Shown: positions 28,231 to 61,092 of the stretch, in pieces
Layout: the number at the start of each line of letters is the position of its first letter
How positions within the stretch are numbered: the first letter of the stretch is position 1
Origin: a virus
Lineage: Duplodnaviria > Caudoviricetes
Reading direction: 5' to 3' (one strand)
IMG/VR virus record: IMGVR_UViG_3300006056_000001
Span: 64,001-128,000 of that record
DNA length: 64,000 bases
Notes under the pieces: model-generated
Seen by the model: only the letters and a program-made list of their open reading frames with translations
Database searches by the model: none
Told to the model about the DNA's origin: nothing
Program-made: the position numbers and the translations under genes

Positions 28231-29806
28231 TTCTGAAATCTATCTTGTAGTTCCATCGGTGAGTTAGGTGCCCGTGGATCTTGGGTAGAACTAACTCAAC
28301 TAAGTAAAGTAAAACTTTACAAGAGATATCGGTGATACATGGAAAAAGTAAAACACGGTTGGTATTCTGAAAAGCAAGCCGCTATTGCTGGTACTCATGT
28401 ATATTCAACTGATACTTGCGAGGTACATGTTTCAACTATCTCAGAAAGTGATACCGATTCAGGTAGCAAGTTTGACGATATGAAGTACGTAGGTATCGTC
28501 AAAAATTGGCTGCGAGAGGGTATTCCTCGTGGTATGGGTCAAAAGTCATTTGACGACCTAAAGAAAACCATGAAGGGTCTCTTAGGTCCCTAACCGAACA
28601 CCAAGAACAAGTTGTTGGACAGACGCCCTGTGGTATGCATGTGACCGCATGTATGCTTCTTCCCCTCCTTCCCACTGTCTGACGTAAAAGGCTTGACCGA
28701 GCCTTTCTTGATCTTCCTTCCTAAATAATAAAATGAAGATTGCTGCTGTAATCTTAATTACTTTTATTTGGAGCTTTATTATTGGACCTATATCCTTAGC
28801 TCCACTTAATAGAGAACAGTTAACTTATCTACAAACTGTTTTTATTAGCTTTTTGTTTGGTATTGTTGTAGTAGCATTCCTTTGGTCAATTTATATTTTA
28901 CTTAACTAATGGGCTTTCTAATTTTCTGGTGTTTACTTTCGTTATTGCCTGCTATTGCAGCAGTTAAAGCAGATTGTGAAAGAGGTGTATCTTTTATAAT
29001 ACTAATCTTAAGCTTCGTGCTTACGTTCATAACGTGGCCTTTATTTTTATATCTATTTTTCTATTATTGTTTTGCTGAACATCAATACTTATTTAAAAAG
29101 TATTATCCAGAATAGTGGATCTGGCCACTTAAAATAGGCTAATAAGCCAGAAGCGTTGTCAGATAGTTGACAGGAAGCGACTCCAAATCCTAGATGGATG
29201 TCTAGACATCTAAGTGCAGGCTGGTCTGGGATGTCGTTTGTAATTACTGTAGGTGGAGAAATCTGCCGAACAAGTGTACAAATCCTACGCTTACAGTTCG
29301 CGTTAGGCCGGGTCAATTTGTGAACTATTGATCTGGTCTTTAAGAGATATTCCCTCTTTAACCTGCTTGGGATAGGTTAATTCCCACGATAGCAGGACCT
29401 AGGGAAGATAGAACGACTGTCCTTTTTCTTTAACAAAAATAATAAAATAATGATTTACCTAATAGCAGCAATAATTGTGTTATACTATGTAAATAGACAA
29501 GATAGAAATAAAGATGGATGATCCAATAGAATTAGAACTTATTAAAAGAACAAAGATTGAGCTATTAACTGAATTATTAGAAGAATTATATAAACCAAAA
29601 ACTTATGCTATTGATGATAATATAAATCAAGAAGATTATAAAAAAGGAGTTATTACTCAAAAAATATATACATCAGGAAATATAAAATACCATCTTAACC
29701 AATTACTTACTAATACACAAGTAGAACATATTTCTTTAACACTTCAAGAAAAATATCCTAATTCCCCATTAACTCAGTTTAATAAGAAATAGAGATAATT
29801 TTCTTT

Positions 29807-33622: not shown

Positions 33623-33715
33623 TGGGATGTGACCGGAGCTAGGTCGACTGGACCAGCCTTTTAAGCTGGAGAGGGGTAACCCTCCGCGTGGGTTCGAATC
33701 CCACCATCCCAACCA
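33623..33715 (+). tRNA. tRNA with TTT (Lys) anticodon and long variable arm
   Basis: TGGGATG/CATCCCA, CCAGC-CTTTTAA-GCTGG, variable hairpin GAGGG/CCCTC, canonical T-arm, ACCA. Confidence 0.75.
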
Positions 33716-36232: not shown

Positions 36233-37822
36233 ATGAATAAAAACCTTTTTAGCAATAAAACTCCTGGAAAGACTATCCCAGCTCCAAATACTGTTAATAA
36301 TGCTGGTGGACTTGCTTACTTAAGAGATGATGAATCTCAGTTAGCACAACTAGCTATTACAGGTTGCTTTGGAAATACTTACTATGTAAGTGCAGATAGC
36401 CAGCTAAAAGACGTTATTGCTTTAGCAAAGAAGTGCTCTCCTTTGTTTGTAGCACAAACGGCTATCTATGCTCGTAAGCAGGGCATGATGAAGGATATGC
36501 CGGCTGTATTAGCTGCTGTACTATCTACCAGAGATCTTCCTCTATTAAAGCAGATCTTCCCTGTTGTTATTGATAATGTTAAAATGTTACGTAACTTTGT
36601 ACAAGTTATTAGATCTGGCGTAGTAGGAAGAAAGAGCTTTGGTACTGCTCTAAAGAATCTGATACGTCAATATTTTAACAACAAGACGCCTGAGCAACTA
36701 TTTAAGCAGTCTCTTGGTACTTCTCCTTCCATTGGAGATATTATCAAGATGGTACATCCTAAGCCGAAGGATGAGGCTACTTCTATGACTTTTGCTTACT
36801 TAACTGGTAAGGAAGTCTTAGCTAAGGGCGCTCTACCCCAGCTATTACAGGATTACATGGCATTCCGTGAAGATCAGACTAAGGCTATGCCTAATCTGAA
36901 TTTCCAGTTCCTTTCTAGTCTACCTTTGACTAAGGAACAATGGACTCAGCTTTGTCTGACGTCTACATATAATACTTTACGTATGAACTTGAATACTTTT
37001 AATAGACATGGTGTATTTAAGGATAATACTGTAACTTCTAAGGTTATTGCCCGCTTGACTGATCCTAAGGAGATCAAGAAGAGCAAGGTAATGCCTTATC
37101 AGATTTATAGCGCATATAAGCATATTGATAGTGAATTGCCTCCTGGTATGGCTCAAGCTCTTGCCAAGGCTGCAGATATTTCCTTAGATAATATTCCTGA
37201 CTTACCTGCTAACTTGGTTATTGGTCTAGATACCAGTGGTAGTATGAGTTCTACTGTTACTGGTAATCGTGGAAGTGCTTCTTCCAAGATGAAGTATATT
37301 GATGTAGCTGCCTTGATGGCAGCAGCTATTGTGTCTAAGTGTCCAACTGCTACTGTTATTCCTTTTGATACTCGTTATCATAAAGGATTTAAGATGAAGG
37401 GTAGTATCGTAGATACTGCTGAAGCTTTATCTAAGTTTGGTGGCGGTGGTACTGAATGTTCTATTCCTATTCAAGAAGCAGCTAAGATGTCTAATGTAGA
37501 TGCTATTATAATTATCTCTGATAATGAGAGCTGGGCTTCTACTGCTCGCGACTCCATGACTGAATGGAGAAAGGTACAGAAGAAGAATCCTAATGCTAAG
37601 TTAATTAATATTGATATATCACCCTCACACTCTACCCAAACAAAGGATGAGCAAAATATTATAAATATTGGTGGATTTTCTGACTCTGTATTTAATGTTA
37701 TCTCTAACTATTTAAGTGGATCCATTGATCAGTGGATTGAAATTATTGAGAAAATCGATATTAGTAATACTCCTGTGACTACTACGTCTGTAGAGACGTC
37801 TGTAGAAAATACAGAAGAGTAA
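36233..37822 (+). CDS. rsr: Ro60/Rsr TROVE-domain RNA-binding protein with vWA domain
   Basis: N-terminal VNNAGGLAY and G.FGNTYY; LRMNLNTF; MIDAS DTSGSM; GGGT; IIISDNESW. Confidence 0.92.
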   Translation: MNKNLFSNKTPGKTIPAPNTVNNAGGLAYLRDDESQLAQLAITGCFGNTYYVSADSQLKDVIALAKKCSPLFVAQTAIYARKQGMMKDMPAVLAAVLSTRDLPLLKQIFPVVIDNVKMLRNFVQVIRSGVVGRKSFGTALKNLIRQYFNNKTPEQLFKQSLGTSPSIGDIIKMVHPKPKDEATSMTFAYLTGKEVLAKGALPQLLQDYMAFREDQTKAMPNLNFQFLSSLPLTKEQWTQLCLTSTYNTLRMNLNTFNRHGVFKDNTVTSKVIARLTDPKEIKKSKVMPYQIYSAYKHIDSELPPGMAQALAKAADISLDNIPDLPANLVIGLDTSGSMSSTVTGNRGSASSKMKYIDVAALMAAAIVSKCPTATVIPFDTRYHKGFKMKGSIVDTAEALSKFGGGGTECSIPIQEAAKMSNVDAIIIISDNESWASTARDSMTEWRKVQKKNPNAKLINIDISPSHSTQTKDEQNIINIGGFSDSVFNVISNYLSGSIDQWIEIIEKIDISNTPVTTTSVETSVENTEE

Positions 37823-37829
37823 CACATCT

Positions 37830-37919
37830 TGGTGAATGCAGAGTAGGATTACATTGTAACCATAATAACAAGCGGCCTTAGAAAGGCCGTTAAAACGGTC
37901 TTACTCACTTTTGTCACCA
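37830..37919 (+). ncRNA. Y RNA-like unit 1 (hairpin module)
   Basis: TGGTGA/TCACCA, GAATGC, GAGTAGGATT/GGTCTTACTC; module CGGCCT/AGGCCG hairpin. Confidence 0.75.
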
Positions 37920-37931
37920 TTTCATTATTCT

Positions 37932-37997
37932 AGCGGATGCTGACAGGACTACATTACTTGCTTTGTAAACATAGTGTCTTGTTAATAACTTGCCGCT
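37932..37997 (+). ncRNA. Y RNA-like unit 2 (minimal)
   Basis: AGCGG/CCGCT, GGATGC, TGACAGGAC/GTCTTGTTA, short loop. Confidence 0.7.
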
Positions 37998-38004
37998 TTA
38001 TTCT

Positions 38005-38132
38005 TGACGAATGCTCGAAGGGTTTACATTCATACGGAGAACGTGGACCAGGTGCGATTCCTGGAACCCCGACCATCGGGGTCATGGTGTAACAGTAGCA
38101 CACGAAAATAGACTCTTCAATTCTTGTCGTCA
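38005..38132 (+). ncRNA. Y RNA-like unit 3 (YrlA-type permuted tRNA domain)
   Basis: TGACGA/TCGTCA, GAATGC; T-arm CCAGG/CCTGG, acceptor hairpin ACCCCGA-CCA-TCGGGGT, D-arm. Confidence 0.85.
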
Positions 38133-38141
38133 TTTCTTTAT

Positions 38142-38275
38142 TGATCGAATGCTCTAAGGGATTACAATTCACTGTTAATGAAAAGGTCGTTGGTTCGAGT
38201 CCAACCCACCCCGCCAATGGGGTGGTAGCTCAGTTGGTAGAGCGTTAAAATAGTCTCTTAAATTTTTGTCGATCA
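38142..38275 (+). ncRNA. Y RNA-like unit 4 containing a complete permuted tRNA-Asn(GTT)
   Basis: TGATCGA/TCGATCA; TTCA-CTGTTAA-TGAA, T-arm, CCACCCC-GCCA-AT-GGGGTGG, TAGCTCAGTTGGTAGAGC. Confidence 0.85.
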
Positions 38276-38284
38276 TATTTTTCT

Positions 38285-38418
38285 ATAAGTGAATGCCTGA
38301 AAGGAATTACATTTTTTTTGAACAAAGAGGGACTGGGTTCGAATCCCAGCTTAGCTCGAAAGAGCTATGTGTTGTAATGGTAGCACTAAAACAATTTCTT
38401 TCGATTCTTGTCACTTAT
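38285..38418 (+). ncRNA. Y RNA-like unit 5 (YrlA-type)
   Basis: ATAAGTGA/TCACTTAT, GAATGC; T-arm CTGGG-TTCGAAT-CCCAG; TAGCTC-GAAA-GAGCTA; D-arm. Confidence 0.85.
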
Positions 38419-38424
38419 TTTCCT

Positions 38425-38547
38425 TCCGAATGCAGTTAGGACTACAATAACACTCTGGTGGTCAGAGGTTCAATTCCTCTAGTCCGCGAAAGCGGGCATA
38501 GCTCAGTGGTAGAGCACCAGATAAAGGTCTTAACAAATATCGTCGGA
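38425..38547 (+). ncRNA. Y RNA-like unit 6 (canonical YrlA-type)
   Basis: TCCGA/TCGGA, GAATGC; TCTGGTG/CACCAGA; T-arm AGAGG/CCTCT; GTCCGC-GAAA-GCGGGC; TAGCTCAGTGGTAGAGC. Confidence 0.88.
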
Positions 38548-39130
38548 TTTTCTTTTTAGAATAACAAAATGATAGAATTCTTCACAGGACTGATTCTTGG
38601 ATTAGGATGGTGGTGGATTCCTATCCTTTCATTAGGCTCTATTATTCTAGATAGAACTGAACATTATTTTTGGTCATTAGTAACTACTATTCTTATCTTT
38701 GTTTCTTGTTTAGTATTACTTAATCTTTCTTGGCAGTATATATTTTATATTGCTATTTTTTACATTCCAGTAGGATTTTTATGGTCCTTCTGGAGATGGT
38801 ATCAAAATTGTAAGAAAGTAATTAACGAAATAGAAGATAAATATAATAGTAATTATATTCCTAGTAATTATACACTAGACAACTTAGAAGATAAGGTTGC
38901 AATTCATCTTAACTTACATAGAATTACTGGGTGGGTATTATCCTGGCCAGTAAGTATTTTCTGTTATTTACTTGAAGATGTACTAGTATCTATTGAAAAA
39001 ACTATTAGAAATATATCTAAGTATACATATACAAAATGGTCTGATGAAGCTGTCTCTAAAATTAGAGATATTAAAAATAAAAAAGAATCTAAAGACTTAG
39101 AAGATTACAGTTAAGTATATTGATCTTTAA

Positions 39131-39207
39131 CCCCAGGTAGCTCAGTTGGTTAGAGTTTTCGTCTGATAAGCGAAGGGTCGGAGGTTCGAGTCCTCCCCTG
39201 GGGACCA
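39131..39207 (+). tRNA. tRNA-Ile(GAT)
   Basis: TTCGT-CTGATAA-GCGAA; CCA. Confidence 0.9.
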
Positions 39208-39210
39208 CAT

Positions 39211-39286
39211 GGGGTCGTAGTTCAATTGGCAGAACATTGGCTTTGCAAGTCAAGGGTTGAGGGTTCAAGTCCCTCCGATTCCACCA
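39211..39286 (+). tRNA. tRNA-Ala(TGC)
   Basis: TTGGC-TTTGCAA-GTCAA; G3:U70; CCA. Confidence 0.92.
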
Positions 39287-39302
39287 ACTTACAGCAAAAA
39301 AA

Positions 39303-39803
39303 ATGAAAACCAACGGATACAGTCTTCAACTTAAGATCAAAGATCTCAAGAATGAAGTAGAGTCATATTCTATTCAGTTCGCCAACGGCAGCACCAAGTT
39401 TTCTGATGAAGAGAAGCTTGGTGTCAAAGAAGCTTATGATGCTTTTGCCAAGGCTGAAAAAGAGCTAGCTAGGCTACAGACCGCCCAAACTCTCTACAAT
39501 CTCCAGGTCAAGGTCGTTGTTCTAAACGAACGTATGACCCTCTGTGAGGCTATTAAGAGGGTTGGTGGAGCAGGTCGTGCTGAAGCTATGTGGAAGGGCC
39601 TTGTAGCTCCCAAGAAGGATCGCTACATGCGTGATGAGACTGCCGTCCGAGAGGAAGGTAAGTCCTATGCTCCCAAGACCTACACTGTTGCAGAAGCTCA
39701 GGCCCAGCTTAGAGCTAGTGCAACTTATGCTTCGTCTCTCAGAGCTGCCATTCAAGAGGCTAATGGCACTGTAATCGAAATTCCAGACGCAGAGCTGGCG
39801 TAA
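39303..39803 (+). CDS. DIP1984-like coiled-coil protein
   Basis: Helical hairpins with MTLCEAIK and LRAAIQEAN motifs recalled from the DIP1984 family; not verified by search. Confidence 0.5.
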   Translation: MKTNGYSLQLKIKDLKNEVESYSIQFANGSTKFSDEEKLGVKEAYDAFAKAEKELARLQTAQTLYNLQVKVVVLNERMTLCEAIKRVGGAGRAEAMWKGLVAPKKDRYMRDETAVREEGKSYAPKTYTVAEAQAQLRASATYASSLRAAIQEANGTVIEIPDAELA

Positions 39804-39824
39804 TAGCCGGCCTTGTGACTAGAT

Positions 39825-40186
39825 AAGTCAGGTGATTACTAATCGCATACCTTAATTGGTACGGAAAAGATATTAGTTTCGCTACCTTTCTAATTCCTTA
39901 CACGGCCTAATAAGGGTGACACCATCTAAATAGGCTGCAGGGCTAAGTAACAGTAGCATTTACTTATCAAGAATTTCCTTTGTCCTATTACCTGACTTCC
40001 ATGTGATTGTACAGTTTAGGGTAAGTAAATCAGTAGAAATACTGATCTAAAGCGCCTAAATAATATTAAAATTAGTAATCAAGTAGATACTAAGTTCTTA
40101 TTGGTCCCTAGGTTTTCTAAAAAGGGAACAAACCTAAGTAACAAACTTGATGCTAGTATCCTTCTTAATTCTATTTACAATCACAT
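39825..40186 (+). ncRNA. Two tandem homologous structured RNA units (39825-39998, 40001-40186)
   Basis: 12-bp and 11-bp closing helices; shared TCTAAA-N12-CTAAGTAACA. Confidence 0.65.
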
Positions 40187-40189
40187 ATA

Positions 40190-40317
40190 TGTAAGGTTGC
40201 CCGAGTGGCCGAAGGGAACAATCAAGCTTAAGTGAAATATTAATTATCTTTGTCTCCTGTGTAGCTTGACTGTTTGTACACGACACGTCGTAGGTTCGAA
40301 TCCTACACCTTGCATCC
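40190..40317 (+). ncRNA. tRNA-like RNA with extended anticodon arm (possible intron)
   Basis: TGTAAGGT/ACCTTGCA, class-II D-arm CCCGAGTGGCCGAAGGG, 12-bp stem with 34-nt loop, canonical T-arm. Confidence 0.6.
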
Positions 40318-40996
40318 TTTTTCATATGCTAATAGCACCTTCTAACGGAATCCCTGGGTTTAAACAAAACAAGTTTTCTATTACAGATCACATCTGTAGA
40401 GAATGCTCTAAGAGAATATTACAATACTTAGGCCCCGCTGTTACTGGCGGTGGTAATCCTCTATTTGTTTGCTCTGGCTGTGAAAAAGCTGGCGCTTCTA
40501 TGGGTCCTCATCCTCTGTGCTGGTGTGGTCAAAAATATGATGGACACACCAATAAGCAGATATACATGTGCTACCGGATTCCTGACAAATCTTCTGCACT
40601 TCCTTCGGAGGTTCGTGCATTGGGTTCAATGGGATTCTCTGTATCTGGTAACCTCAAAGTAGGTGTTATTTTAGTAGAAGACTATATGAATAGTATTAGT
40701 CCAGAAAGAAACGCACTTAAAAAGCCATGAGTCCTCAAACAAAGAAAGTTCTCTCTGCTGTTCTTATTCCATTTCTTATTGGTCTTTTAATTTCTATATT
40801 TATTATGTGGACAGCTAATGTTAATTCTTCTCATAAGGATGCATATAAACTTAATTGGGAAAAGATTGTAGATTCTAATGGATATGTAACTCCTATCTAT
40901 CGTGCTCGTATTTATGGAGGCTGGCTAGTAAAAAGCTATAGTGGTATGATTTTTATTAGTTTAAACCATCCAGAAAACTGGATTCTAGAAAAGTAA

Positions 40997-41074
40997 GTCT
41001 CCTTAGCTCAGTAGGATTAGAGCACTTTTTTTCTAAAAAAGCGGTCCCAGGTTCAAGCCCTGGAGGAGATACCA
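40997..41074 (+). tRNA. tRNA-Arg(TCT)
   Basis: CTTTT-TTTCTAA-AAAAG; CCA. Confidence 0.88.
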
Positions 41075-42189
41075 ATGGATTGTCCAGTTAAAACAAACTA
41101 TTCTACTTTTACAAAAGCTATAGAATATTTTACCATAATTATTTGTATTACTTTTATAGCTTTTAGCTTATATATTACTTTATATTATGGTTAATACAGA
41201 AACTTGGCATCTAGAAGAACAAGTTAAGCAACTTGTAAAGCAATTAGACGCCGCTAATACTTCTTTATCTACTAGATTTCATATTGACTTAGATAAGTTT
41301 GATATATTTATTGAACTACTATCTAAAGTAGATAACAAAGACGCCCTTAGACAACTTCTACTTTCTTGTTCATTTCCTTTAGATCAAAGAGAAATGGCTA
41401 AGAAAGTTTGTAAGCTACTAGATGAAATAAAATGATCAAAAGACTTTTTAATGTAATAGGAGTTATATTGTGTATTTGTCTACTTCCATTTTGGATGTTT
41501 TTATCTATTTTTGTAGAATGTTTAGCTGTCTTAGCATCAATATTTCAATACATTATTACAGGAAGTGATATATCTGATGACACAGATAAATCTGCTTGGG
41601 CATATAAAATAAGAAAATGTTCATGTTTTAGTATAATGAAATGAAAAAACAAACTTTTCCACGACCATTACCTCCTCCTAATGAAACTATCGGAGGTATT
41701 TCAAAGTTTGAATCAAATCTTTGGTTCGTAGGTATTGTTTTAGCTTTTATTGCTTTTATTATTGCTTCTGCACTAGGATTTGGTCATAAAAAATGAATGC
41801 AGTAGACAACATCCCAATCAATGCGTTCTTCCACGCAATTATGCTTATGACCTTAAAGGTTGTATCTGATACTTTATTTAAAGCCCCAAATATTCCTTAT
41901 TTCCTTTGTATTATTGTATATTTTTTGATCATTATGTATACTCAAGAAATTAGAAAGAAAGAAAAAGACGATCAAAAAGAAGATATAGACTATAATGCAT
42001 CAGATAATGGAGTAGATGTATCAGAATACATTGGAAAAACTCCATCTCAAGTAAAAAAGTCTAAAAACAAATGAATTACTTAATTTGTACTTTTTATATT
42101 GTTGTACTTTGTCATTGGATTTATGTTACTAATAAACATGCTTATAAATTTGCTAATAAGAAATATAATGAATGGTTTAGGAGAAAAAA

Positions 42190-55437: not shown

Positions 55438-55584
55438 GGGTTCATAGCATAATGGTTAATGCTTTCTCAAACAAAAGCGGCTTAGATGACTCAGTAAGAT
55501 CACCCGGTATACAGGGCCTTGACTAAGTATTTAGGTTGGGAGTCACAACTCTCGATAGGGGTTCGATTCCCCTTGAATCCACCA
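55438..55584 (+). ncRNA. tRNA-like RNA with G3:U70 and ~65-nt hairpin in the anticodon arm
   Basis: GGGTTCA/TGAATCC-ACCA; normal D- and T-arms; TTCTCAA/TTGGGAG stem enclosing long hairpin. Confidence 0.7.
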
Positions 55585-60414: not shown

Positions 60415-61092
60415 CATAAAAGATCATGGAAACCAATCAGAAAAACGAATATATCCAGACGGCAACTAATCTTAGTTGCTGTTTTTTACTAGCTATAACT
60501 TCTATTATGTCTCCTTTCTATATGCCTTTCTTTTTTGGCATTATTTCTTCATTAGGTACTTTAGGCGCGGCTTATTTTATTGCTGCATCTAATGAACCTA
60601 CTAAGAAAATGATTATTACTATATATGAAAAAGTATCTAAAATGCTTGATTTTGGATTAACTGTTACAGTAAATGCAGATGAAAAGGAAGAACCTTCTAG
60701 CACTAGGCCGTCTGGACGCCGAGGCGGCAAGACCGCATAGACGACTAATAAAAGATAAACAATAATAGAGCATATATTTTATGAAACCTAGATTCTGTTT
60801 CCCCTTTCTAGGTAAAAAATTTGACTTTATTGTCAAACTCTTACTAAGATTACTAAAAAGAAATAAAAAAATGACACAAGAATTCCAAGACTTGAAACTT
60901 AAAGTTGAAGCAAATATTGCACTACAGAATCAACTTATTACTTCTGTTAATGCTTTAGTTGCTAAACTAGGACAAATAGATCCTCCTCAGGAAATCGTGG
61001 ATCTAGCTAATCAGGTTCAGGCAGCATCTGATGCTATGTCTACCACATTAAATGGTATTCCGCCTGTCTAATTAGTTTTCCAACTAATAATT

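What the first reader, a model, noticed from the sequence alone, without database searches (positions are those of the whole stretch)
39303..40186. DIP1984-like gene followed by two homologous ~180-nt structured RNAs
Seen: unit A is closed by AAGTCAGGTGAT/ATTACCTGACTT (39825/39998) and unit B by ATGTGATTGTA/TACAATCACAT (40001/40186). Both contain TCTAAA-N12-CTAAGTAACA with identical spacing but different N12 (39925-39952; 40116-40143), plus shared ATTAGT and TCCTT elements. Inference: a second protein-plus-RNA-array module, 0.8 kb from the Ro60 array; the conserved boxes may bind the upstream protein and the variable segment could be a guide or specificity element. The protein family call is from memory.
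Basis: partly seen in the sequence, partly recalled or inferred. Interest (0 to 1): 0.75.

Follow-up and report, generated by a model that had tools for sequence, protein, structure and literature searches.

The report
Phage helical protein with partner RNAs
Inside the tRNA cluster of a 190-kb uncultured phage, a small helical protein gene of unknown function is followed by two real, folded RNAs of about 180 bases; relatives of the gene in many large phages also carry such an RNA, which matches no catalogued RNA family, so the two are probably halves of an undescribed protein-RNA particle.

Summary
ORF 39303-39803 is followed by two stem-closed RNAs, 39825-39998 and 40001-40186, and both carry TCTAAA-N12-CTAAGTAACA.

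The protein fails the DIP1984 (NF038048) and DUF6847 profiles. Its confident model nevertheless matches the C. diphtheriae structure 3KDQ (Z 13, 147 of 152 residues), so it is a fold-level relative. Its own family has 645 clusters.

About 36 homologous loci, mostly large phages, carry a 140-190-nt RNA just after the gene. It has a closing stem, a junction, a hairpin, a third helix and a 3' tract with CU at 7-nt spacing. Covariation is strong. A model built from these RNAs hits once per genome in five phage records, always beside the gene. No Rfam family matches.

Against a 96%-identical relative, the window's RNAs show six compensatory pair changes and none that break a pair. My covariance models do not recognise the window's two units. 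Their family membership therefore rests on synteny, architecture and the CU heptads.

The guide-RNA idea is not supported. The most likely reading is a dedicated protein-RNA particle released by tRNA-processing enzymes, with unknown function.

This scan has already noted the same gene-plus-RNA pair in at least 24 other genomes. I found no paper or Rfam family that describes it.

The parts
39131..39286 (+). tRNA-Ile(GAU) and tRNA-Ala(UGC). The second ends 16 nt before the ORF start, so the ORF and the RNAs lie within a run of same-strand tRNA genes.
   Evidence: ARAGORN and Rfam. The consensus scan finds promoter-like sites in 37700-41200 no more often than in shuffles (9 against 9.9), none on the + strand between tRNA-Ala and the tRNA-like element, and no terminator-like site there.
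39303..39803 (+). Gene for a 166-aa helical protein: a fold-level relative of DIP1984/DUF6847 (PDB 3KDQ) and a member of an unnamed family of 645 clusters at 50% identity.
   Evidence: The gene is under purifying selection against L074 and is present once in the genome.
39825..39998 (+). RNA unit A, 174 nt. P1 is 39825-39836 with 39987-39998. J1/2 is 39837-39847. The P2 hairpin is 39848-39851 with 39858-39861. The P3 base is GGAAA 39863-39867 with UUUCC 39974-39978. The CU heptads start at 39978, 39985 and 39992.
   Evidence: Two double compensatory changes in P2 against L074 and none that break a pair. z -4.2. Three CU units at period 7.
40001..40186 (+). RNA unit B, 186 nt. P1 is 40001-40013 with 40174-40186. 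P2a is 40015-40020 with 40055-40060. P2b is 40029-40035 with 40040-40046, capped by a GAAA loop. The CU heptads start at 40164 and 40171.
   Evidence: Four double compensatory changes (P2a and P2b) against L074 and none that break a pair. z -4.6.
39925..39952 (+). Its N12 forms one strand of a predicted helix.
40116..40143 (+).
40191..40314 (+). tRNA-like element that starts 4 nt after unit B. It is probably the RNase P site that would set the 3' end of unit B. Its anticodon arm is replaced by a 9-10-bp stem with a 34-nt loop containing AUCUUUGUCUCCUGUGU.
   Evidence: Sequence and fold. ARAGORN does not call it. Model R1 gives a weak local hit of 10.8 bits. In 9 of 36 related loci a tRNA gene starts 0-7 nt after the RNA.

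Best explanation
This is a dedicated protein-RNA gene pair. The 166-aa DIP1984-fold protein and the folded RNA(s) encoded directly behind it are made from one transcript that also carries tRNAs. The RNAs are cut out as discrete species closed by stem P1. Their ends would be set by the enzymes that process the flanking tRNAs, with RNase P cutting at the start of the next tRNA or tRNA-like element. In other phages a U-tract or a terminator right after P1 does this job.

The protein, probably as an oligomer, then binds the conserved core of the three-way junction, namely the CU-N5-CU(G) tract, the GG after P2 and the AG of the P2 loop. Together they would form a stable particle that acts in trans during infection, most likely on translation or on tRNA/RNA quality control.

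Shown here: the gene and the RNA co-occur, the RNA structure is conserved, and both lie on the same strand, adjacent to each other. Inferred: binding, processing, the oligomeric state and the function. This phage carries two diverged RNA copies for one protein gene.
For: 1. In about 36 non-identical loci with a homologue of the protein (32-96% identity), a 10-15-bp closing stem spanning 140-190 nt starts 7-214 nt after the stop codon, on the same strand.

2. Covariation was counted on 21 loci, 9 of them outside the seed alignment. 89.6% of cells are paired against 59.3% in shuffles. 114 cells carry a change on both sides against 35 in shuffles. The covariation score is 0.758 against 0.207, and at most 0.18 when the partners are slid by 1-3 columns.

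3. Model R1 finds exactly one match in each of five whole phage records (1.72 Mb). Each match lies just 3' of that record's single copy of the gene.

4. The window's units compared with the 96%-identical relative L074 differ at 36 positions. 15 of these are in paired columns, giving 6 double compensatory changes and 3 single changes that keep the pair. None breaks a pair.

5. CU-N5-CU at period 7 occurs in the last 40 nt of 29 of 30 non-redundant RNAs (shuffled mean 8.8, maximum 15). Three such units occur in 10 of 30 (shuffled mean 0.95). Both window units carry the signature.

6. The 3' end of the RNA abuts a tRNA gene (0-7 nt) in 9 of 36 loci and here. In other loci P1 is followed by a U-tract or a terminator.

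7. The pair tables contain many G-U pairs, which fits an RNA read from the gene's strand.

8. No Rfam family matches any of these RNAs.

9. Genomic context: tRNA or tmRNA genes lie within 1.5 kb in 23 of 36 loci. EF-Ts, MetRS or CysRS are next door in some loci, RtcB is 4 kb away in one record, and Ro60 with Y-RNA-like genes lies 1.5-3 kb upstream here.
Against: No experiment or expression data show that the RNA accumulates or that the protein binds it.

The protein is only mildly basic (median pI 8.5) and has no recognised RNA-binding domain.

The covariance models built from GC-rich relatives do not recognise the window's units. R1 gives unit A 6.1 bits and nothing for unit B. R2 finds neither. 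The window RNAs are therefore tied to the family only by position, size, architecture and the CU heptads.

The interior of P3 could not be aligned across the family.

The neighbouring genes are mixed, so the function cannot be read from context.
Confidence: 0.6

Rival explanations
1. The RNA is a cis-acting 3' UTR element of the protein's own mRNA. It could be a stabiliser against 3' exonucleases, a terminator-like structure, or an operator through which the protein feeds back on its own message. It would have no function in trans.
For: The RNA is always on the same strand directly after the stop codon. In several loci P1 is followed by a U-tract or a terminator, so the RNA forms the transcript's 3' end.
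Against: A 170-nt three-way junction with invariant single-stranded nucleotides is far more than a stabiliser needs. The element is duplicated in tandem here, and each copy keeps its own structure. It can lie 214 nt from the stop codon (L060). Where a tRNA gene starts 0-7 nt after it, tRNA processing would cut its 3' end free. No promoter or terminator separates it from the next tRNA in the window.
Confidence: 0.2
2. The RNA is an independent small-RNA gene with its own function, for example a decoy or sponge for a host RNA-binding factor or nuclease. It would sit beside the protein gene without binding the protein.
For: The RNA lies in tRNA/tmRNA islands, where phages collect stable RNAs. Nothing shows binding.
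Against: The pairing is one-to-one and the RNA is adjacent to the gene across protein identities down to about 32% and across very different gene neighbourhoods. That is hard to explain without a functional link.
Confidence: 0.12
3. This is the first reader's idea: the RNA is a guide. The constant boxes dock the protein, and the variable N12 segment pairs with a phage or host nucleic acid.
For: N12 differs between units A and B, while the flanking boxes are identical.
Against: In both units N12 is one strand of a predicted helix, and two of its three changes in unit A against L074 keep base pairs. There is no complementary site with at most 1 mismatch in the 189.7-kb phage genome beyond the RNA's own complementary strand and two 1-mismatch sites that look like chance. 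I did not find the box pair in the other loci. Its 42 exact matches in the viral collection are roughly what chance would give by my own estimate, and I did not examine them. The protein has no nuclease or other effector domain.
Confidence: 0.04

Closest known systems
DIP1984 family / Pfam DUF6847 (NF038048, PF20935; crystal structure 3KDQ from Corynebacterium diphtheriae; often annotated 'septicolysin')
   Same: The fold is the same over almost the whole chain (VIA Z 13.0, 147 of 152 residues aligned; Foldseek probability 1.0). The size and the order of helices and the beta-hairpin agree. 8 of 71 family members give weak PF20935 hits. The ESM Atlas neighbours carry that name.
   Different: Sequence identity to 3KDQ is 12%. 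Neither curated profile reaches its cut-off for the window protein. The phage family has its own invariant motif (E-A-[IV]-K-x-V-G-G-A-G-R-x-E-K-M-W). The named family has no known function either, so the name explains nothing.
Ro60 (Rsr) with Y-RNA-like RNAs (YrlA), present 1.5-3 kb upstream in this same phage
   Same: In both, a protein gene is followed directly by one or several stem-closed partner RNAs on the same strand, in a tRNA-rich region of a phage. Both suggest RNA quality control.
   Different: The protein fold is unrelated (TROVE plus vWA against a helical hairpin). The YrlA and YrlB models do not match units A or B even at E 10. The RNA has no tRNA-like module.
SmpB with tmRNA
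   Same: Both pair a small protein with a structured RNA that is matured by tRNA-processing enzymes. tmRNA genes lie within a few hundred bases to about 1 kb of the pair in at least seven loci.
   Different: There is no tRNA-like domain, no tag reading frame and no SmpB fold. The tmRNA models do not match the RNA.
TRAP with the trp leader, or HutP with the hut leader: oligomeric proteins that read evenly spaced short repeats
   Same: A short motif (CU) recurs at a fixed 7-nt spacing in the conserved tract. Earlier notes of this scan describe longer rows of 7-nt units in RNAs of other subfamilies.
   Different: There are only two or three units here. No ring-forming protein is shown. The RNA lies downstream of the gene, not in the leader of a regulated operon.
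6S RNA
   Same: The size (about 180 nt) and the long closing stem are similar.
   Different: This RNA is a three-way junction, not a closed helix with a central bubble. The Rfam 6S models give no hit.

Membership tests
DIP1984 family (NCBIfam NF038048) | Profile score at or above the curated cut-off of 70 bits | tested here: not met
   No NF038048 hit for the protein at E 0.1, for 18 relatives at E 1, or in the whole phage genome at E 10.
Pfam DUF6847 (PF20935) | Profile score at or above the gathering threshold of 27 bits | tested here: not met
   The window protein has no PF20935 hit. 8 of 71 family members give weak hits, the best at E 0.0016.
DIP1984/DUF6847 superfamily (fold of PDB 3KDQ) | Same fold over the whole chain | tested here: met
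   The model has pLDDT 93.1. Foldseek gives 3kdq_C E 7.6e-4, probability 1.0, TM 0.68/0.73. VIA gives Z 13.0, rmsd 3.5, 147 of 152 residues aligned, with the next hit at 8.3. I did not check that 3KDQ is the DIP1984 protein itself. That link comes from my memory and from the Atlas naming.
RNA family downstream of the protein's homologues (models R1 and R2, made here) | Significant match to a covariance model built from other members | tested here: not met
   With filters off, R1 gives unit A 6.1 bits (E 0.058 in 2 kb) and does not find unit B. R2 finds neither unit. Several other divergent loci are missed as well.
RNA family downstream of the protein's homologues | Position, strand and size: a 140-190-nt stem-closed element starting shortly after the stop codon of the homologous gene | tested here: met
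   Unit A starts 21 nt after the stop codon and is 174 nt long with a 12-bp P1. The family range is 7-214 nt after the stop codon and 139-189 nt in length.
RNA family downstream of the protein's homologues | Architecture P1 - J1/2 - P2 hairpin - P3, whose base pairs with the nucleotides just 5' of the 3' tract | tested here: met
   Unit A has an 11-nt J1/2 and a 4-bp P2, and GGAAA pairs with UUUCC directly before UUUGUCCU. Unit B has a two-part P2 with a GAAA loop and a longer J2/3. This is judged on folds and on one close relative, not on a family-wide alignment.
RNA family downstream of the protein's homologues | CU-N5-CU at 7-nt spacing at the entry to the 3' strand of P1 | tested here: met
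   Present in 29 of 30 RNAs against 8.8 in shuffles. Unit A has three units and unit B has two. The last base is A here instead of the usual G.
YrlA / YrlB (Rfam RF02553, RF02565) | Match to the covariance model | tested here: not met
   There is no hit on 39804-40190 at E 10. The upstream array, by contrast, matches YrlA with up to 56 bits.
Any Rfam 15 family, including RAGATH-27 (RF03100), which earlier notes of this scan named | Match at the gathering score, or any match at E 1-10 | tested here: not met
   nothing lies on the RNA in the window or in 28 related loci.

The most novel reading that the evidence does not exclude
DIP1984-fold proteins, a family with a solved structure but no known function, are the protein halves of a widespread and undescribed class of ribonucleoprotein particles in large phages and, according to earlier notes of this scan, in bacteria. 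An oligomer of the protein would read CU units spaced 7 nt apart on a stem-closed RNA that tRNA-processing enzymes release. The particle would act on translation or on RNA damage during infection, in parallel with Ro60/Y RNA and SmpB/tmRNA.
Probability: 0.35. Interest if true: 0.85.

Novelty: categorically new. Interest (0 to 1): 0.75.

Why it matters
A protein family with a crystal structure from 2009 and a misleading 'septicolysin' label would gain its first functional handle, a dedicated RNA partner. Large phages would gain a third RNA-protein module beside Ro60/Y RNA and SmpB/tmRNA.

The protein subfamily alone has 645 clusters at 50% identity and no annotation. The RNA is absent from Rfam. 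The pair sits among the tRNA, tmRNA, aminoacyl-tRNA synthetase and EF-Ts genes that huge phages use to take over translation.

The question can be tested directly. One small protein and a 174-nt RNA are enough for binding and structure work.

Tried and rejected
- **Rfam.** Searches at the gathering score and at E 1-10 on the window and on 28 loci found nothing on the RNA.
- **Other protein libraries.** PHROGs and PADLOC gave nothing useful for the protein. PDB searches by sequence and by profile gave only coiled-coil noise.
- **Cultured phages and plasmids.** tblastn with P0001 and P0021 found no match among 50,697 phage records. Among the plasmids, P0021 gave one chance hit. The DNA of the region matches other phages only in the tRNAs.
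- **Covariance models.** R1 and R2 do not reach the window's units or several other divergent loci.
- **Hand-written descriptor.** A descriptor of P1, P2, GG and the CU motif matched 111 places in the phage genome. It is useless as a test and I dropped it.
- **Weak R1 hit at 60681-60809.** It lies in coding sequence with no matching fold, so I reject it.
- **Similarity of units A and B.** Their global alignment is not significant.
- **7-nt periodicity over whole units.** It is weak: identity 0.281 at lag 7 against about 0.26 at other lags. Only the 3' tract is clearly periodic.
- **Guide hypothesis.** No complementary target exists in the phage genome.
- **Canonical DIP1984 genes in cells.** I could not obtain any for comparison. 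Two plasmid accessions were not held, and 301 Patescibacteria genomes had none.
- **Phage T5.** Earlier notes name it as a carrier. It matches neither PF20935 nor profile A2, so that lead is not confirmed at sequence level.
- **Boxes as anticodon loops.** I considered reading the UCUAAA boxes as CUA anticodon loops and rejected it, because other members have CUCAA or CUGAA at that place.
- **Known RNA classes.** I considered hammerhead ribozyme, RNase P, 5S rRNA, SRP RNA and 6S RNA from memory of their consensus sequences. None fits, and Rfam gave no hit for any of them.

Full report
**Setting.** The window is bases 64001-128000 of a 189.7-kb IMG/VR virus record with direct terminal repeats. 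It holds 24 tRNA genes, a Pistol ribozyme, and a Ro60 (TROVE plus vWA) gene at 36233-37822. Directly after the Ro60 gene comes an array of Y-RNA-like units that match Rfam YrlA below its gathering score. The finding lies 1.5 kb further on: tRNA-Ile, tRNA-Ala, then ORF 39303-39803, then about 390 nt without a credible ORF, then a tRNA-like element.

**The observation.**
- Unit A (39825-39998, 174 nt) is closed by 12 bp, one of them G-U.
- Unit B (40001-40186, 186 nt) is closed by 11-13 bp.
- TCTAAA-N12-CTAAGTAACA occurs exactly twice in the window, at 39925 and 40116. Even with two mismatches allowed, 0.18 matches are expected.
- The units fold better than shuffles, with z -4.2 and -4.6 and z -2.76 for the whole stretch.
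- The consensus scan finds no + strand promoter-like site and no terminator-like site between tRNA-Ala and the tRNA-like element. The ORF and the RNAs therefore look like parts of one tRNA-containing transcript.
- Overall, units A and B are not significantly alike (z 1.7). They share the box pair, the architecture and the 3' tract.

**The protein.** Pfam, NCBIfam, PHROGs and PADLOC give no family for it. The DIP1984 model NF038048 finds nothing in the whole phage genome even at E 10.

The protein is nevertheless not an orphan. A word-indexed search found 18 relatives. A full profile search found 645 clusters at 50% identity, 407 of them at E below 1e-30. None of the ten clusters I looked up carries more than 'hypothetical protein' as a name. 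The family has a sharp motif, E-A-[IV]-K-x-V-G-G-A-G-R-x-E-K-M-W.

An AlphaFold model built on 71 sequences is confident (pLDDT 93). Its one clear structural match is 3KDQ, an uncharacterised C. diphtheriae protein: Foldseek probability 1.0 and TM 0.68-0.73, and VIA Z 13.0 over 147 of 152 residues, with the next hit at 8.3. The ESM Atlas neighbours are named 'DIP1984 family protein', DUF6847 and 'putative septicolysin'. Eight of the 71 relatives give weak PF20935 hits. The full-text search found no paper that assigns the family a function. 'DIP1984' occurs in one unrelated paper, and no listed paper holds DUF6847, PF20935 or 3KDQ. In the one paper I read, 'septicolysin' is an annotation label without experiments on this protein.

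**The RNA in relatives.** I collected loci that encode homologues from IMG/VR, from JGI/ENA metagenomes and from GTDB genomes (two MAG contigs). Nearly all come from large phages of 80-530 kb.

In about 36 non-identical loci, a 10-15-bp stem with a completely different sequence in each lineage encloses 140-190 nt. It starts 7-214 nt after the stop codon, on the gene's strand. The shared architecture is as follows:
- P1, the closing stem.
- J1/2, a junction of 7-17 nt.
- P2, a hairpin whose loop has an invariant AG (GAGA, GAAA, UAGC or CAGC).
- One pyrimidine, then GG, which opens P3.
- The base of P3 pairs with the nucleotides just 5' of a conserved tract, A-U-C-U-Y-G-N-U-N-C-U-G-U-U, that runs into the 3' strand of P1.

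On a model-made alignment of 21 loci, nine of them outside the seed, 89.6% of cells are paired against 59.3% in shuffles. 114 cells carry changes on both sides against 35 in shuffles. The covariation score is 0.758 against 0.207, and at most 0.18 when the partners are slid. That alignment is fitted to the model, so the numbers lean towards the structure. RNAalifold on the plain MAFFT alignment also recovers P1 and P2 with compensatory changes.

The interior of P3 has recurring boxes (CUCAAU, CUAAG, CUAAA and a GAAG on the other side). I could not align it across the family.

**Specificity.** Model R1 was run over five whole phage records totalling 1.72 Mb. It hits exactly once in each, always just 3' of that record's only copy of the gene. 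Four of those five RNAs were in the seed, so their matching is by construction. The absence of any other hit is the informative part. The own genome has one copy of the gene and two RNA units.

**The window's units.** A 51-kb metagenome contig (L074) encodes a 96%-identical protein and both units.
- The ORF differs at 41 of 501 positions, 32 of them third codon positions.
- Unit A differs at 15 positions and unit B at 21.
- Of the 15 differences in predicted paired columns, twelve form six double compensatory changes: two in the P2 of unit A, three in P2a and one in P2b of unit B. Three are single changes that keep a pair. None breaks a pair.

The structures in this very window are thus under selection.

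The weak point is that the covariance models from the GC-rich relatives do not recognise the AT-rich window units. R1 gives unit A 6.1 bits and nothing for unit B. The broader R2 gives nothing. Other divergent loci are missed too. What ties the window's units to the family is the following:
- Position behind the homologous gene, strand and size.
- The three-way-junction layout.
- One sequence signature that I could test without an alignment. CU-N5-CU at period 7 occurs in the last 40 nt of 29 of 30 non-redundant RNAs (shuffled tails: mean 8.8, maximum 15; other periods: 6-18). Three units in a row occur in 10 of 30 (shuffled mean 0.95). Unit A has three (CUUUGUC CUAUUAC CUGACUU) and unit B has two.

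**Maturation.** In 9 of 36 loci a tRNA gene starts 0-7 nt after the last base of P1. Here a tRNA-like element starts 4 nt after unit B, and units A and B are 2 nt apart. In other loci P1 is followed by a U-tract or by a separate terminator hairpin. Both arrangements would give an RNA that ends at P1. The role of RNase P and other tRNA-processing enzymes is inferred from the established way tRNA precursors are cut. It is not shown here.

**Context.** tRNA or tmRNA genes lie within 1.5 kb in 23 of 36 loci. tmRNA genes lie close by in at least seven loci. EF-Ts, MetRS and CysRS genes are direct neighbours in some loci. Other neighbours are unrelated: methylases, HNH endonucleases, vWA proteins and a ribonucleotide reductase. 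Of five records checked, two encode RtcB (one of them 4 kb from the pair) and three show a TROVE match, two of them above Pfam's cut-off. This suggests a role in translation or RNA quality control but does not prove one.

**The guide idea.** In both units N12 is one strand of a predicted helix. Two of its three changes in unit A against L074 keep pairs. The only perfect complement in the phage genome is the RNA's own opposite strand. I did not find the box pair in the other loci. Its 42 exact matches in the viral collection are roughly what chance would give by my own estimate, and I did not examine them. I rate this reading as unlikely.

**Earlier notes of this scan.** After forming the reading above I consulted the scan's notes. 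They hold 28 findings in at least 24 other genomes that describe a DIP1984/DUF6847-like gene followed by an uncatalogued structured RNA 'with evenly spaced 7-base units', in phages, bacteria, an archaeon and giant viruses. Some are said to lie beside rtcB.

These are unchecked AI notes and I used them as leads. The heptad lead made me test spacing. Over whole units the signal is weak, but it is clear in the 3' tract. The claim that phage T5 carries the pair is not confirmed at sequence level. Rfam RAGATH-27, named in two notes, does not match here. So this window holds another instance, in a divergent and large subfamily, of something the scan keeps finding. I found no paper or Rfam family that describes it.

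**Verdict.** The feature is real and the module reading is well supported. Binding, processing and function are inferred. I put 0.6 on a dedicated particle, 0.2 on a purely cis-acting 3' UTR element, 0.12 on an unlinked small RNA and 0.04 on a guide RNA.

Noticed in passing
window 40191-40314: A tRNA-like element with intact acceptor, D, variable and T regions. Its anticodon arm is replaced by a 9-10-bp stem and a 34-nt loop. The loop holds AUCUUUGUCUCCUGUGU, which resembles the 3' tract of the RNA family (AUCUUGCUCCUGUU). ARAGORN does not call it a tRNA. Model R1 gives it 10.8 bits. It is conserved in L074, where a T-stem pair changes on both sides (U-A to C-G). It could be a third, minimal partner RNA, or only the RNase P handle for unit B.
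   Followed up: partly
window 36233-38560: A Ro60 (TROVE plus vWA) gene followed directly by an array of Y-RNA-like units. Three of them match Rfam YrlA at 27-56 bits, below the gathering score of 69, and they contain tRNA-like T-arm and D-arm segments.
   Followed up: partly
window 29114-29179: A Pistol self-cleaving ribozyme match above Rfam's gathering score (42.5 bits against 34.5).
   Followed up: no
window 55438-55581 and 33623-33715: Over-long tRNA matches. One is 144 nt with an insert of about 70 nt. The other is a 93-nt tRNA-Lys(UUU) with a long extra arm.
   Followed up: no
L076:1-172 and L076:2022-2160: A relative's contig carries a group I intron fragment (Rfam 52 bits, cut off at the contig end) and a 139-nt tRNA match with a large insert. 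The tRNA match lies 180 nt downstream of the partner RNA.
   Followed up: no
L012:3322-3933, L014:4807-6453, L008:2507-3940: Genes for EF-Ts, methionyl-tRNA synthetase and cysteinyl-tRNA synthetase lie directly beside the protein-RNA pair in three different huge-phage lineages.
   Followed up: partly
L105:3001-3150 and L103:1501-1650: Partial matches (residues 41-90 only, 43% identity) in a Patescibacteria MAG contig and in a 45-kb metagenome contig. They may be a more distant or fused relative of the protein.
   Followed up: no
window 38569-39114: A 181-aa ORF between the Y-RNA array and tRNA-Ile. It has no family match. The weak DUF4131 hit suggests membrane helices.
   Followed up: no
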